IMG/VR virus record: IMGVR_UViG_3300032516_000004
Location: 1-64,000 of that record
Origin: a virus
Length of the DNA stretch: 64,000 bases
Direction: 5' to 3' (one strand)
Part shown: positions 15,939 to 29,759 of the stretch, in pieces
Position numbering within the stretch: the first letter of the stretch is position 1
Layout: each line of letters starts with the position of its first letter
The notes under the pieces: generated by a model
What the model saw: only the letters and a program-made list of their open reading frames with translations
Told to the model about the DNA's origin: nothing
Database searches by the model: none
Translations under genes and position numbers: made by a program

Positions 15939-16163
15939 CTAGCTTACCAGTAATAAGATCACTCGACGCAAGGCTGCTGCCATTTCAGCAATGCACATGC
16001 CAGGCAGAATTTTGCCAGTGAATACCACTTCAATTTCACCATCACCTAGATCCATAGTGTCTTCACCAGATTCAACGGTCTCAAACACTGTAATCGAGAA
16101 TGTAACGCTTCGTTGTTTCATGACTCCTCGTGACTGATTCGTTTCATGATCCGCCATTAACAT
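15939..16163 (-). CDS. hypothetical protein (true start probably MKQRS)
   Basis: GAGGAG RBS precedes internal ATG. Confidence 0.45.
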   Translation of the reverse strand: MLMADHETNQSRGVMKQRSVTFSITVFETVESGEDTMDLGDGEIEVVFTGKILPGMCIAEMAAALRRVILLLVS

Positions 16164-17465: not shown

Positions 17466-17490
17466 TGCAGAACGCGTGCCAAGCTAAACA
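17466..17490 (-). promoter_or_regulatory. sigma54 promoter with upstream TGTTTAGC element
   Basis: Minus strand TGTTTAGCTTGGCACGCGTTCTGCA. Confidence 0.7.
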
Positions 17491-19101: not shown

Positions 19102-19237
19102 AGCGTGTTACCGGTTGGTAACGCTGACATGCCCGTTGTCAACGGTCGTTGACACTTTGTAAACGATCGTTTACAATATGCAACCATTTGCATATTTGAC
19201 TCGTTATCCGGTATGTTACCGGCTGGTAACGCTGACA
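19102..19237. repeat. cluster of palindromes and a 24-nt palindromic direct repeat
   Basis: TGTTACCGG(T/C)TGGTAACGCTGACA at 19106-19129 and 19214-19237; GTCAACG-gt-CGTTGAC 19138-19153; perfect 20-bp palindrome TTGTAAACGATCGTTTACAA 19157-19176; ATATGCAA-ccat-TTGCATAT 19176-19195. Confidence 0.85.
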
Positions 19238-20970: not shown

Positions 20971-21708
20971 GGTACTCCTTGGCCTTTCTGACCCCGAAGG
21001 GTCGGGTTTAGGGACTCTGAACCCACGACATAAGGTCAGCTGAGGTTCAAGGGGTGAACCTCAGTCTTCCTTATACTACCACTATATCTACCGTGTACCG
21101 CTACCGTGACCACTGATCTTGGGTCACACGGTCTGCCCACCACAATAAGAGAAACTGCAATTTTCGTGCCTGCTCGTCCCTTGCTATACGTTGTCATGTT
21201 TTACCTCACATGTGTTGCAGTGTATGGTATTGTCGAAGTTCGCGATAAACCGCTAACCGTAAGCCAGTCAATCAGTTTTTCACACACATTATATGATCTG
21301 ATATACCCCACCATTGAACGTTTGTACAGTATCGTGCAGGACTTGTCCCGTGGGTCCCCCGCCAGCCATCCCGTGGGTCCCGTGAAGGTGGCTAAGTAGT
21401 TAATTCGAACTGACTTTGGTGGGGTCCCCCGACCCCCCCGAGGTATTAAGCAAGAAATTACAGGCCCATGGCATTGAAGCTGGCCCCACATCCCCTCATA
21501 TTGACGAAGCAATCCGTCGTCTAGATAACCAAGAACTCACACGTAATACCGTCGAAACATTACCATAGGAGTCTATCATGTCCAAAGAAGATCCCACAAC
21601 CTCCTAAGATTCAAGACCTAGATCTCTGGATTACCGACTTCGAAGACGCTGAATTTAGTATTGTGGACCCATATGATATTGGGGTCCCGTTTCCCGGTAA
21701 TCCCTTGT

Positions 21709-21734
21709 CCCACCACGCGTAAACGCGTGGTGGG
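21709..21734. terminator. perfect 12-bp GC-rich hairpin closing the pentamer array (terminator or processing/protective stem)
   Basis: CCCACCACGCGT-AA-ACGCGTGGTGGG; no U-tract on either strand. Confidence 0.65.
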
Positions 21735-21735
21735 G

Positions 21736-21957
21736 GATATGGGCATCGCACGATCTGTTGAATGACCTGAATGGATGTGCGTCGATGAGGTATGTCGTCT
21801 GGGGAGTTTCGACCGGGCCGGATAAGATGGGATTGTCGCGGGGATAGACCCATGTGGTCGGGTCGAGGTCGAGGCGACTCGACTTGTCAAACCGGGTCGT
21901 TTCGACTGGGAAGGATACGTCATATAGGCGCGGCTCATAATGGTTCGGCTTGTCATA
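21736..21957 (-). ncRNA. putative guide-RNA array of 5-nt periodic units (RHC triplet + variable NN)
   Basis: Starts 9 nt after the RAMP stop; 36/40 triplets read in register end in C; TATGAC/TATGAC/TTTGAC recur exactly 33 nt apart; strand inferred from the upstream promoter. Confidence 0.7.
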
Positions 21958-21965
21958 TGATTTGT

Positions 21966-22634
21966 CTACCGGACCTTTACGCATTCAACGGCCCGACTCT
22001 TCCCATATCCTTGGCTTCGGTCTGACCCTATCCCAAGATCCCGGAGATACAGGATTGCAAATCCAAGAGCTTCTTCGGTGACGGTTCCTCGACACAGCAT
22101 TTTAACCGTAAATGTAACCTCCACGTCATGTAGGATGTCAAATTTTTTCAACGAGTTTCGGGGTCCACTGGCCGTCATGACATGAATGGCCCGTTCTTCC
22201 TGACCCACCTCTTTGATCGGCTCTCCGTTACGGGTAAAGTAACATCGATCCTCGACCACGAATACCTGGTCCGCGACTTTGCTCTTCAATGCCTTGATTC
22301 CCACCATATCCTTGATAATGTTAGCCGCTTCCTTGAGCCCACTCTTGATACACCGGCCTTCAATATAAAGCCCCCGATCATCGCGTTTGAAAATTGTCCA
22401 ACTTCGGGTTTCTTTGTCGTCGGCCACTTCCGGGAGTTCCTGGACCGTGGCTTCCACAATCTTGGCCTTGTCTTCAGCACTTTTAGCCTTGCACGTTGCA
22501 TTGATCCATCCTTCGATCATCTGTGGATTGGCTGGGGTCCCGCCCACCGCATTTACCAAATGTAGGGTTACTCGATACTCGCTAAATACTTGGTCGTCAA
22601 ATTTCTGTTTCATAGCTTCAAAATCAAATGTCAT
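21966..22634 (-). CDS. solitary Cas7/RAMP-superfamily protein (Csm3/Csf2-like RRM)
   Basis: 222 aa; beta1 YRVTLHL + GGTP; GLYIEGRCIKSGLKEAA (cf. IPGSSLKGxLR); thumb with GPRNSL; C-terminal Gly-rich loop LGIGSDRSQGYGK; AGGAGG RBS. Confidence 0.85.
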   Translation of the reverse strand: MTFDFEAMKQKFDDQVFSEYRVTLHLVNAVGGTPANPQMIEGWINATCKAKSAEDKAKIVEATVQELPEVADDKETRSWTIFKRDDRGLYIEGRCIKSGLKEAANIIKDMVGIKALKSKVADQVFVVEDRCYFTRNGEPIKEVGQEERAIHVMTASGPRNSLKKFDILHDVEVTFTVKMLCRGTVTEEALGFAILYLRDLGIGSDRSQGYGKSRAVECVKVR

Positions 22635-22657
22635 ATTACCTCCTAATAATCAGTAGA

Positions 22658-22675
22658 TTGCAGGCGTCGTGCCAA
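22658..22675 (-). promoter_or_regulatory. sigma54 promoter of the RAMP gene
   Basis: Minus strand TTGGCACGACGCCTGCAA, GC (-12) about 26 nt upstream of the ATG. Confidence 0.75.
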
Positions 22676-22744: not shown

Positions 22745-23056
22745 ATGTTTGTTCTGTTATTAAATAATATGCAATCACCCAATATTGAAATCGTGGAACC
22801 CGTAGCAAAGGCTGAAACTCAAGAAGCACTAATGTCATTTATTGAAAGAGAGCGCGTAGCTGCCTATCGAGAACCTGGGGAGAATTATTATGGGACCACG
22901 ATGTGGGGTAAAAACTTTAGAAAAGGTGGTGTCCTGGAATGGTACAATCCCCCGTTTTCTGACCAATATATTGTGGACTTGGGTACTGAGGATGATTGGG
23001 CTACCAGTGCCAGGGCACAATATAGGCAGCAAATAAATTCAATTCCTAGTGTCTAA
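22745..23056 (+). CDS. hypothetical protein
   Basis: GGAG RBS before ATG 22745; F..GG.LEWYNPP motif. Confidence 0.55.
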   Translation: MFVLLLNNMQSPNIEIVEPVAKAETQEALMSFIERERVAAYREPGENYYGTTMWGKNFRKGGVLEWYNPPFSDQYIVDLGTEDDWATSARAQYRQQINSIPSV

Positions 23057-23432
23057 ATTGGAAAGTAGGAAGCATCGTATCATGCCAATTATCAAACCCG
23101 AGGACTGGCAGAAATGGATAGATAACAATTCAGATCCATATGGAAGATGCTGCGTGCTGGTGGCTGAGGAAGTCATGCGAATGCTCGATGAGCCTGAGCA
23201 CGCGAAGCCACCAATCACGGATGACACACCCTACAAGCTCATCGATGCCGCAGATGACAACATTCGAGCTGGTGGTATTACGGGTTTCATGGCTGGGTGT
23301 GTGGCGGAGATGGTGAGCCATTGCCATTCTCGGGGTGAAGAGTTTCGCAGGGCATGGAACGCATATTACGGGATCAAGAGTGATCGGTGGGGTATCGTTA
23401 ACCCCGCGATTTTGACGACCGGCCACCAATAA
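23049..23432 (+). CDS. conserved phage protein (GITGFMAG.....V...HSRGEEFRR.WN)
   Basis: Recurrent phage motif. Confidence 0.7.
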   Translation: MSKLESRKHRIMPIIKPEDWQKWIDNNSDPYGRCCVLVAEEVMRMLDEPEHAKPPITDDTPYKLIDAADDNIRAGGITGFMAGCVAEMVSHCHSRGEEFRRAWNAYYGIKSDRWGIVNPAILTTGHQ

Positions 23433-27832: not shown

Positions 27833-28513
27833 ATGTTGTATTTACAATTAGACACAGCAAAGAAGCTTGTTCAAACAAAACAAGATGTTCGCGGTACACG
27901 TGTCATGTTGGATGAAACGGACACTGCATTACAACAGAAGTTGTTTGCTACTAGAGCTGAGACTGAAAAATTGTCACCAAAATTTGCGGAATTGAAGTCC
28001 CAACTTGAGTACGAGATGCGTGCTCTTGATGATGAAATTTTGGAGGAATGCACGGCTAACCATAGGACCAATTTGTCCAAAATTCAGTTGATGGAGCGCG
28101 CACTATGCGGCGACATGGAATTGGTTATGGTACCTTCCGCTACTAGCGAGGATATCTCAGCCGCTTTGTTGAATGGAGAAAATACTCCATATGTAATGCC
28201 AATGGAGTTTGCTCTCAAGACCAAAGATGGTTTGAATGTTCACGCCTGGTTCAACGGCGACTCAATAATTACCATTGATGCCACGTTTAATGACGAGGAC
28301 ATCGAGGACCCAACATTCTTACACGGGATTGAAACACCGCGATTCATTAATGGTGTTTGTGCGGGTAGTTGGGTCTGGGATTGGGATGGTGGTGACACAA
28401 AGGTGTATGCCGCTAATGATTTGGCGTCACTCAAAATTCAAGTTGCGGTGGACGACAAATGGTTGACGTTCTCCGTAGCATTCAAACAGCACACGTTTAA
28501 CGTGATTGCCTAG
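27833..28513 (+). CDS. hypothetical protein
   Basis: 226 aa, AAGGA RBS. Confidence 0.7.
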   Translation: MLYLQLDTAKKLVQTKQDVRGTRVMLDETDTALQQKLFATRAETEKLSPKFAELKSQLEYEMRALDDEILEECTANHRTNLSKIQLMERALCGDMELVMVPSATSEDISAALLNGENTPYVMPMEFALKTKDGLNVHAWFNGDSIITIDATFNDEDIEDPTFLHGIETPRFINGVCAGSWVWDWDGGDTKVYAANDLASLKIQVAVDDKWLTFSVAFKQHTFNVIA

Positions 28514-29759
28514 GAGAAAAGAAATGTCACTTTTGATTTACGGAGTTTATGACAAGTACGCGCAACCCCTCGGTCAAACACTTGGACAAGTTCGAAATTT
28601 GTATTCGAATCTTTTCAGAAGTGTTGCCGGATACAATCTGAATGACGTTAGCGCCAATTCGATTGATCCTTTGTCCAAAAACAATTTGGACATGTTGGTC
28701 AAATGTCCGTATGGCGCGACAGAAGTACAAGCACATGCATTTTTTGATGCCATCAAAGTACTTCCAGGTTTTGTCGCAGAGTCGATTTATGCAATGCCTG
28801 AACCTCTGCCGGTTTCTGGTACCCCGCAACAACTGATTTTGGCACCACTCGATTCAGCGGGTCCTGTAGCAGCTGATCAATTTGCGGGGCAAAGTACGCC
28901 TGATGGATTTTGCACAAATTATCGTAGAGTAACACCCGGTATTTACAGCTATGATTATGTTCAAAAGTTCTACTACTTTGCTGGAGAATTTGAGAATATG
29001 GATTTCGCCGCTTACACGGCTAATGGTGGAAAATTCGAATCCGATGTAGGGGTTCCTGTACCGTGGCACGTTCCCTACAAGGGATATCTGACAGAAGACC
29101 CTGCCTATCCAGGGAAAGTACGTTTCTACAAGAGCCGTAAGGATTTGGACAGCCTCCAACGGATGTTGCATTATCGAGGGTTTTCATGGTTCGAGATTCA
29201 AGCCCCATTTGCAACGTTGGCAGAATATAGTGCTTACAACGGGGAGGTGGTTCCTGTCAGCTGTGACAACTACTACGACCTGGCCCCTGATGGCAGCTTT
29301 GTACCGATCACAACATTGAAGCAGCCCCCTGCTGGTTGGGGTGTTCAACTTCGCACCAAATACCTTCGGTTTATGGATCGAGGCAAGTGGTACGTGGTTG
29401 AAGTAACTGGCGAGGCATCCAAGGGGCATCAGGCGGGAATTGAGAACATCTATTCCAGCCTTACTCCAGGGCAGGAATCCTTGGCTTGGAAGTGGGCCTC
29501 TCGACACCCAGCAGCGGTCGGATATGGTGGTAATTTCTTCCAAGATATCCGGTTAGGGTATCCTGGCGCGTATTGGCTAGAGTGCGTGTTCCACATTCGT
29601 CAAGGACGTGATGCTGGTGGGCCAGCACAAGGTCCAAAACTTGACGCAGACGGAATATTGGATGAGGTGAATGGAACGCCATCAACGTTGGTGTCTCTGT
29701 ATCCTTGGGGATTGAACACCTATACGGACAAAGCCAAAGCGTTGGATTGGATTCTTTAA
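28506..29759 (+). CDS. aromatic-rich hypothetical protein (possible virion/tail component)
   Basis: 417 aa; AGGAG RBS before MSLL. Confidence 0.7.
   Translation: MPRRKEMSLLIYGVYDKYAQPLGQTLGQVRNLYSNLFRSVAGYNLNDVSANSIDPLSKNNLDMLVKCPYGATEVQAHAFFDAIKVLPGFVAESIYAMPEPLPVSGTPQQLILAPLDSAGPVAADQFAGQSTPDGFCTNYRRVTPGIYSYDYVQKFYYFAGEFENMDFAAYTANGGKFESDVGVPVPWHVPYKGYLTEDPAYPGKVRFYKSRKDLDSLQRMLHYRGFSWFEIQAPFATLAEYSAYNGEVVPVSCDNYYDLAPDGSFVPITTLKQPPAGWGVQLRTKYLRFMDRGKWYVVEVTGEASKGHQAGIENIYSSLTPGQESLAWKWASRHPAAVGYGGNFFQDIRLGYPGAYWLECVFHIRQGRDAGGPAQGPKLDADGILDEVNGTPSTLVSLYPWGLNTYTDKAKALDWIL

What the first reader, a model, noticed from the sequence alone, without database searches (positions are those of the whole stretch)
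21709..22675. Candidate non-CRISPR RNA-guided system: lone Cas7/RAMP gene + 5-nt-periodic RNA array + closing hairpin, under its own sigma54 promoter
SEEN: on the minus strand a compact unit runs promoter (TTGGCACG-N4-CTGCAA, 22658-22675), AGGAGG RBS, a 222-aa ORF with RAMP hallmarks (GLYIEGRCIKSGLKEAA; C-terminal G-rich loop LGIGSDRSQGYGK), then 9 nt later a ~220-nt tract of [RHC][NN] pentamers, then a perfect 12-bp hairpin. No cas1/2/5/6/8/10 or CRISPR array is recognisable anywhere in the window. KNOWN: Cas7-family RAMPs polymerise along guide RNA with fixed nucleotide periodicity (6 nt in Cascade/Csm). INFERENCE: this protein coats the array RNA at one subunit per pentamer; the conserved triplet is held by protein and the variable dinucleotides read a target non-contiguously, so the phage could silence rival phages or host genes. 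This matches my unverified recollection of recently reported phage VIPR systems (RAMP + GGY/NN RNAs). Here the triplet is RHC on the gene strand (GDY on the other), so it would be a divergent variant.
Basis: partly seen in the sequence, partly recalled or inferred. Interest (0 to 1): 0.96.

Follow-up and report, generated by a model that had tools for sequence, protein, structure and literature searches.

The report
Phage VIPR locus, reversed-strand guide array
A large uncultured sediment phage carries a lone Cas7-like protein gene followed by a short five-base-rhythm guide array: a genuine but degenerate example of the VIPR RNA-guided silencing systems published in 2026, so the kind is already known.

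Summary

The conserved triplet is N-Y-C on the gene strand, which is G-R-N on the opposite strand: a relaxed form of the published GGY/NN vrRNA repeat. Relatives show the same layout, some with strict YNNGG repeats. In 66 of 118 non-redundant family loci the G-rich periodic strand lies opposite vipr; it lies on the gene strand in only 2, one of them a false call.

This is a VIPR system (bioRxiv 2026.04.26.720920 and .720927; non-canonical repeats in 2026.10.21.760802), so it is a new member of a known kind. This scan has already met VIPR loci, including this reversed-strand branch, in many other genomes.

- **Unresolved:** which strand gives the guide (about 65% G-rich antisense, 30% sense) and what it targets.
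- **Extras:** no vap gene, a sigma54-type promoter, a Tad4 homolog next door, and a second, SUSP1-like VIPR with a canonical 30-pentamer array 31 kb away across the record ends.

The parts
22658..22675 (-). sigma54-type -24/-12 promoter-like element upstream of vipr
   Evidence: Read directly. The same element sits 52 nt before the ATG in the 84%-identical relative L075. The genome has 5 strict matches where about 0.7 are expected, and 4 of them lie 25-95 nt upstream of an RBS and ATG. Function was not tested.
22639..22644 (-). ribosome-binding site AGGAGG, 4 nt before the ATG
   Evidence: Sequence.
21966..22634 (-). vipr gene: 222-aa stand-alone Cas7-like RAMP (single RRM, long beta-hairpin 144-180 as thumb, glycine-rich loop 201-211)
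   Evidence: - AF2 model: pLDDT 93.1, pTM 0.85.
- Foldseek hits type VII Cas7, Csm3 and Cmr at E 1e-8.
- 887 family clusters.
- Invariant residues include G201, G203, R206 and G211.
- One copy in the genome.
21735..21966 (.). vrRNA-type array. It has six abutting units, each ending in GTC on the + strand: 21735-21796, 21797-21837, 21838-21888, 21889-21921, 21922-21954 and 21955-21966. Each unit is made of pentamers, a G-R-N triplet plus NN on the + strand. The G-rich strand is +, opposite to vipr. The transcribed guide strand is unresolved.
   Evidence: Only the first 34 nt next to the gene are conserved with L075; the rest is unalignable. Relatives carry the same unit grammar, with unit lengths mostly 5k+2.
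21709..21734 (.). Strong palindromic hairpin closing the array on the side away from the gene (11 bp, 4-nt loop, no U-run on either strand)
   Evidence: Folds at -26 to -28 kcal/mol, z about -4.9, on both strands. Relatives have comparable hairpins either at this far end (L075, Mae-JY09) or between gene and array (L003, L077, L080 and others).

Best explanation
This is a VIPR (Viral Interference Programmable Repeat) locus. The 222-aa protein is a Vipr-type minimal RAMP, and the adjacent tract is its guide-RNA (vrRNA) array.

By analogy with the characterised SUSP1 system, Vipr protomers polymerise along the RNA at one per pentamer. They clamp the conserved triplet and present the two variable bases. 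These pair with double-stranded DNA while skipping every third target base, and so silence genes of rival mobile elements or of the host.

Shown here:
- The Cas7-like fold.
- The pentamer and unit grammar of the array.
- The recurrence of that grammar next to homologous genes, some with strict YNNGG repeats.
- The viral setting without cas genes or a CRISPR array.

Inferred: RNA binding, filament formation, the 1-nt-skip reading and the silencing role.

This member belongs to a large branch whose arrays consist of short abutting units (here 12-62 nt). The units end in GUC on the G-rich strand, and that strand lies opposite vipr. In this phage and in L075 the triplet is relaxed to G-R-N.

I favour the G-rich (+) strand as the guide (about 65%), transcribed convergently with vipr. 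vipr itself is probably driven by a sigma54-type promoter. No accessory vap gene is present. The confidence given (0.85) is for the claim that this is a VIPR locus, not for the strand call.

For: **Array.** It holds the densest cluster of the boundary motif in the genome. The phase-corrected pentamer periodicity has p 3.5e-4. It ranks second genome-wide on the GGY register score.

**Relatives.**
- L075 (84% identity) has 13 units of 27, 32 or 37 nt in the same place. Only the gene-proximal 34 nt are conserved.
- L028, L038, L114 and L139 carry strict YNNGG runs.
- 66 of 118 non-redundant loci have a strong GG-periodic array within 1.2 kb of the gene.
- The cultured Microcystis phage Mae-JY09 has the same layout.

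**Published mechanism and motif variants.**

**For the G strand as guide.**
- The motif is the exact reverse complement of the experimentally defined GGY, including the Y, in several relatives.
- L038 has arrays in both orientations, and on the G strand both kinds end YNNGUC.
- L073, with the same G-loop type as L038, has opposite-strand arrays.
- Most near relatives have a strong hairpin between vipr and the array.
Against: - Sequence similarity to the founding Vipr of SUSP1 is marginal: G-loop only, hhalign E 0.014. The family profile against the SUSP1-like family gives E 0.0019, prob. 14%.
- The window's repeats are degenerate. There is no run of four strict YNNGG, and only the first G is well kept.
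- Units give only 5-12 variable dinucleotides, fewer than most published guides (9-16 repeats).
- No target was found above chance.
- No vap gene is present.

Against the G strand as guide:
- No promoter is recognisable for the + strand.
- The array starts at the vipr stop codon. In relatives it abuts the vipr RBS or the next gene's RBS, so the sense (C-rich) strand is certainly transcribed.
- The 66:2 orientation bias is what co-transcription would give.
- The L075 hairpin has its two G.U pairs on the gene strand.
Confidence: 0.85

Rival explanations
1. This is the same VIPR-type system, but the functional RNA is the sense, C-rich strand. It would be co-transcribed with vipr from the sigma54-type promoter, ended by the hairpin, and processed at the GAC boundaries. 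This Vipr branch would then clamp N-Y-C (RCC in relatives) instead of GGY.
For: - The orientation bias is 66:2 across 118 loci.
- Arrays sit 0-25 nt from the vipr stop codon, the vipr RBS or the next gene's RBS, which leaves no room for a separate promoter.
- L114 has TTGACG-17-TATAAT on the gene strand upstream of its array.
- Between the window and L075, only the promoter upstream of vipr is conserved.
- The L075 hairpin carries G.U pairs on the gene strand.
- The phage's second, SUSP1-like system has its array embedded equally tightly, in sense orientation.
Against: - A protein that had switched to a C-rich motif has no reason to use the exact reverse complement of GGY, including the Y and the GUC-containing end.
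- L038, in the same family, has G-rich arrays in sense orientation with their own promoter-like elements and tails.
- The published contacts are to guanines.
Confidence: 0.3
2. The tract is a decaying remnant of an array. The protein, if still active, would use guides encoded elsewhere, for example the canonical array at genome position 168.4-168.6 kb.
For: - The repeats are more degenerate than in most relatives.
- Unit lengths (33, 33, 51, 41) depart from the family's 5k+2 rule.
- A far better GGY/NN array exists in the same genome.
Against: - The closest relative, L075, shows the same relaxed triplet with 13 regular units, so the relaxation is a subclade trait rather than decay.
- The vipr gene is intact with all family invariants.
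- The distal array sits in the canonical position behind its own SUSP1-like vipr and accessory gene.
Confidence: 0.08
3. The tract is not a guide array at all. It would be a protein-coding ORF, or merely a 3' untranslated region with a terminator, and its periodicity would be a chance product of composition.
For: - Open frames of 109-112 aa cover it.
- The naive period-5 score is not the best in the window.
Against: - The ORFs are not conserved in the 84%-identical relative.
- The period-3 signal is low.
- The boundary motif clusters here as nowhere else in the genome.
- The same grammar recurs beside homologous genes in dozens of unrelated contigs.
Confidence: 0.02

Closest known systems
VIPR systems (Vipr protein + vrRNA), experimental exemplar type II of Escherichia phage SUSP1 (bioRxiv 10.64898/2026.04.26.720920; structures 10.64898/2026.04.26.720927)
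   Same: - A stand-alone minimal Cas7-like RAMP in a phage.
- No cas genes and no CRISPR array.
- An adjacent array of pentamers, each a conserved triplet plus two variable bases.
- The body of the array is hypervariable between close relatives.
   Different: - The protein is only marginally similar in sequence, and its G-loop reads SDRSQG rather than GDWRP.
- The G-rich strand lies opposite the gene, whereas SUSP1 arrays are on the gene strand.
- Units are short and abut one another, ending in GUC, instead of about 100-nt RNAs with a structured tail.
- The triplet is relaxed to G-R-N.
- There is no vap gene.
VIPR variants in print: 'staggered' vrRNA arrays and NNNGG / YNNNG / NNNNG repeats (same preprint, methods and legend of fig. 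S18), and non-canonical 5-mer cores (bioRxiv 10.64898/2026.10.21.760802)
   Same: Abutting units in which the end of one marks the start of the next, and a degenerate triplet beside a Vipr-like fold.
   Different: The figures were not available, so identity with a named type could not be checked. Neither text mentions the array's strand relative to vipr.
Cas7-family backbone subunits of class 1 CRISPR effectors (Csm3, Cmr4, type VII Cas7)
   Different: There are no partner Cas proteins, no CRISPR repeats, and a 5-nt rather than 6-nt register. The repeat bases themselves are read.

Membership tests
[not shown]
   [not shown]
VIPR | Sequence homology to a published Vipr (SUSP1 ALH47069) | tested here: inconclusive
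   hhalign of the family profile against SUSP1 Vipr aligns only the G-loop region, E 0.014. Against the SUSP1-like family profile: E 0.0019, prob. 14%, 117 columns in colinear order. The published family was assembled by 8 rounds of PSI-BLAST from X1U2U4, which could not be repeated here.
VIPR | Adjacent tandem pentamers: conserved GGY (or related) triplet alternating with variable NN | tested here: met
   Met in relaxed form, G-R-N/NN, with p 3.5e-4 after phase correction. The strict search rule of the paper (at least 4 consecutive YNNGG) is not met in the window. The paper allows NNNGG, YNNNG and NNNNG.
VIPR | Association of the protein family with such arrays across independent loci | tested here: met
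   66 of 118 non-redundant loci have a strong GG-periodic array within 1.2 kb. Strict YNNGG runs occur in L028, L038, L114 and L139.
VIPR | No CRISPR array and no adaptation or other cas genes; viral genome | tested here: met
   No CRISPR-like repeats in the window. No Cas1, Cas2 or Pfam RAMP match in the 178-kb genome. It is an IMG/VR virus record that CheckV rates as 100% complete.
VIPR | Accessory vap gene next to vipr (typical, not universal) | tested here: not met
   Neighbouring ORFs have no DNA-binding or nuclease family match, and the flanks differ in L075.
VIPR | vrRNA expressed, bound by Vipr, and reading DNA by the 1-nt-skip rule | not testable with these tools
   Pattern searches built on the rule gave nothing above chance.
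Class 1 CRISPR-Cas effector | Cas7 together with Cas5, the large subunit and Cas6, plus a CRISPR repeat-spacer array | tested here: not met
   Only the Cas7-like fold is present.

The most novel reading that the evidence does not exclude
In this large Vipr branch the guide may be read from the vipr-sense, C-rich strand. The protein would then clamp the complement (RCC or NYC) of the published GGY motif. Alternatively, the branch may depend on obligatory antisense transcription across its own operon, so that the vipr mRNA and the guides are perfectly complementary and regulate each other. Either case would be a mode not described for VIPR.
Probability: 0.3. Interest if true: 0.7.

Novelty: new member of a known kind. 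Interest (0 to 1): 0.35.

Why it matters
The locus adds a well-delimited, minimal example (promoter, one gene, about 230 nt of array, hairpin; under 1 kb) of the reversed-strand, short-unit branch of VIPR. It occurs in a phage that also carries a canonical SUSP1-like VIPR. That pairing makes a natural test bed for two questions: which strand makes the guide, and whether two Vipr proteins keep their guides apart.

The cultured Microcystis phage Mae-JY09 has the same layout and could settle the strand question by ordinary RNA-seq.

The kind of system itself is published, and this scan has met it many times.

Tried and rejected
1. **Strict YNNGG x4 scan of the window:** nothing. A naive period-5 statistic was unimpressive until the phase slips were modelled.
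2. **Pfam, PHROGs and PDB sequence searches of the protein:** only sub-threshold RAMP G-loop hits.
3. **Target search by the 1-nt-skip rule.**
   - Own genome plus 1.1 Mb of fetched loci: no better than shuffled guides.
   - Units from 77 relatives against this genome: a slight, non-significant excess for skip 1, 34 against 21.
   - IMG/VR exact patterns from the two longest units gave 0 and 1 hits, which is chance level.
   - An 8-dinucleotide pattern gave 33 hits, near expectation. Twelve came from one prophage family, and the two extra dinucleotides did not match.
   - Two patterns from the distal array gave 1 hit (a giant-virus MAG) and 0 hits.
4. **Strand call from G.U against A.C mismatches in 23 array-flanking hairpins:** 12 against 15, uninformative.
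5. **Rfam.** No family match in the locus, and no hammerhead ribozymes in 17 related loci that could have fixed the strand.
6. **Sigma70 and terminator scan:** no convincing + strand promoter and no U-run terminator.
7. **Coding potential of the tract:** rejected.
8. **Tools and data that were unavailable.** The supplements and figures of the VIPR preprint are not held, so the published type (I-VII) could not be assigned.

Full report
**What is there.** On the minus strand, a -24/-12 element (TTGGCACG-N4-CTGCAA, 22675-22658) and an AGGAGG site precede a 222-aa ORF at 22634-21966. The stop codon overlaps the first GAC of a tract that runs to a strong palindromic hairpin at 21734-21709. The hairpin has 11 Watson-Crick pairs and folds at -26 to -28 kcal/mol, z about -4.9, on either strand. 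The only slip is the stem length: 11 pairs, not 12.

**The protein.**
- Pfam gives only a sub-threshold RAMP hit (E 0.16), and PDB sequence profiles touch only RAMP G-loops.
- The family is large: 66 near-length relatives and 887 clusters at 50% identity with E <= 1e-3.
- With a 64-sequence alignment, AlphaFold2 gives pLDDT 93.1 and pTM 0.85.
- The secondary-structure string shows one RRM, a long beta-hairpin (144-180) in the thumb position, and a glycine-rich loop (201-211). The loop residues G201, G203, R206 and G211 are invariant, and D205 is invariant in the closer clade.
- It is therefore a stand-alone minimal Cas7-like RAMP.
- The 178-kb record is an IMG/VR virus that CheckV rates as complete. 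It has one copy of this gene and no Cas1, Cas2 or Pfam-RAMP match. The window has no CRISPR-like repeats.

**The tract.** Scored naively, the 5-nt rhythm is weak. No four consecutive YNNGG occur in the window, and the uncorrected period-5 statistic is only in the top 0.6%. Relatives explain why.

Downstream of homologous genes, hexamers such as CGAGCC and CAAGCC are strongly enriched. The region splits into units that start with GAC-R-N-N-C-C on the gene strand. Their lengths are mostly 5k+2, with 32, 27, 37, 22 and 12 nt the commonest. Each boundary therefore shifts the pentamer register.

In the window, this boundary motif occurs six times in 250 nt against 0.94 per kb genome-wide. It is the densest cluster in the genome on either strand. 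The phase can be set by the boundaries, which means it was not fitted to the window. With the defining 8 nt left out, the five pentamer positions differ strongly: G 38.7 against 12.6 +/- 5.1 in shuffles, p 3.5e-4.

Triplet position 2 is 87% pyrimidine and position 3 is 61% C on the gene strand, which is G-R-N on the other strand. The closest relative, L075 (84% protein identity), shows the same relaxed triplet with 13 regular units. More distant relatives have N-C-C, that is GGN or GGY.

Nucleotide homology between the window and L075 covers the promoter, the gene and only the first 34 nt of the array (window 22677-21932). The body of the array is unalignable, as expected for guide-like sequence. 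The ORFs that overlap it are not conserved, and the period-3 signal is low.

**What it is.** VIPR systems were described in 2026.
- They consist of a phage-encoded minimal RAMP (Vipr) and vrRNAs made of YNNGG repeats, that is GGY/NN.
- One protomer binds each repeat and clamps the GGY.
- The NN bases read double-stranded DNA while skipping every third base, which silences rival elements.
- The paper allows NNNGG, YNNNG and NNNNG repeats, staggered arrays and single-guide systems.
- A later preprint reports 21 clusters with non-canonical cores next to Vipr-like folds.

I located the SUSP1 locus (KT454805.2; vipr at 28474-29061 on the minus strand, with H17 and D177-W178-R179 as in the structure paper). 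Its YNNGG arrays lie on the gene strand.

Sequence similarity of the present family to SUSP1 Vipr is marginal (G-loop only, E 0.014). Membership therefore rests on three things: the fold, the array grammar, and family members that carry strict YNNGG arrays (L028, L038, L114, L139). The cultured Microcystis phage Mae-JY09 has a homolog followed by the same GAC-delimited array and a far-end hairpin.

**Which strand is the guide?** This is the main open point.

*The bias.* In 118 non-redundant loci, a strong GG-periodic array lies within 1.2 kb on the strand opposite vipr in 66. It lies on the same strand in 2, of which one (L073) is a false call and one (L038) is real.

*For the G-rich antisense strand.*
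- The motif is the exact reverse complement of the experimentally defined GGY, including the pyrimidine in several relatives.
- L038 has arrays in both orientations, and on the G strand both kinds end in YNNGUC.
- Most near relatives have a strong hairpin between vipr and the array.
- The published protein contacts are to guanines.

*For the C-rich sense strand.*
- Co-transcription would produce the orientation bias itself.
- Arrays start at the stop codon (window, L075), run up to the vipr RBS, or abut the next gene's RBS (L003, L083, L086). This leaves no room for a dedicated promoter.
- L114 has a near-consensus sigma70 promoter on the gene strand upstream of its array.
- The L075 hairpin has its G.U pairs on the gene strand.
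- No + strand promoter is evident in the window.

Hairpin wobble counts across 23 stems were uninformative (12 against 15), and no hammerhead ribozymes were found to fix the strand. I put about 65% on the G-rich strand and 30% on the sense strand.

**Function and targets.** No target could be assigned. Units supply only 5-12 variable dinucleotides, so single units have little specificity. Searches with the 1-nt-skip rule gave nothing above shuffled or chance expectation. These covered the phage's own genome, 1.1 Mb of related loci and IMG/VR. The silencing role is therefore inferred from the family, not shown here.

**Context.**
- The sigma54-type element is conserved in L075. It recurs five times in the genome where about 0.7 are expected, and four of those sites lie just upstream of an RBS and ATG. 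The promoter call is plausible.
- No vap-like neighbour exists, and the flanks differ between the window and L075.
- The next gene but one, 23049-23432(+), matches Tad4, a Thoeris inhibitor (42.6 bits, cut-off 25). The locus therefore sits among counter-defence genes.

**A second system.** A genome-wide GGY register score singled out 168,416-168,567(-), which is outside the window. About 30 pentamers there lie in one register (25/30 over ten units, z 6.6). Directly upstream on the same strand are a 163-aa gene and a 210-aa gene.
- The family profile of the 210-aa protein matches SUSP1 Vipr (prob. 97.9%, E 5.5e-13).

The phage therefore carries two divergent VIPR systems: one canonical, and the reversed-strand one of this finding.

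**Verdict.** The kind is already published, including degenerate repeat motifs. This scan has repeatedly recorded VIPR loci, and this reversed-strand, short-unit branch in particular, in other genomes. It is a new member of a known kind. Its residual interest lies in the unresolved guide strand and in the coexistence of two systems in one phage.

Noticed in passing
[not shown]
   Followed up: yes
window 23049-23432 (+): A 127-aa ORF matches Pfam Tad4, the type I Thoeris inhibitor (E 8.6e-11, 42.6 bits, cut-off 25), and phrog_9822. It is an anti-defence gene about 400 nt from vipr.
   Followed up: partly
window 17466-17481 (-), 15987-16002 (-); genome 97788-97803 (+): Further sigma54-type -24/-12 elements (TGGCAY-N5-YTGCW), each 40-95 nt upstream of an RBS and ATG. 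The genome has five strict matches where about 0.7 are expected, which suggests that this phage uses sigma54-dependent promoters.
   Followed up: partly
L001 (Microcystis phage Mae-JY09, PP395641.1 37713-38976): A cultured cyanophage carries a homolog (annotated hypothetical, WWT39994.1). It is followed by the same GAC-delimited, C-rich-in-sense array and a far-end hairpin. It is a tractable system for the strand question.
   Followed up: partly
L038 2367-4900 and 8320-8434: One viral contig carries five G-rich YNNGG arrays on the vipr strand, each with a CAAGTCAAGRCAAGG-type tail. It also carries a GAC-delimited array of the opposite orientation directly after the vipr stop codon.
   Followed up: partly
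window 20990-21025 (-): A weak match to Rfam PhotoRC-I (23 bits, gathering score 45, E 0.006). It is probably chance.
   Followed up: no
window 19106-19129 and 19214-19237: Two copies of a 24-nt direct repeat (96% identical) 108 nt apart, each containing an inverted repeat (GTTACCGG/CTGGTAAC). It could be an operator or a terminator pair.
   Followed up: no
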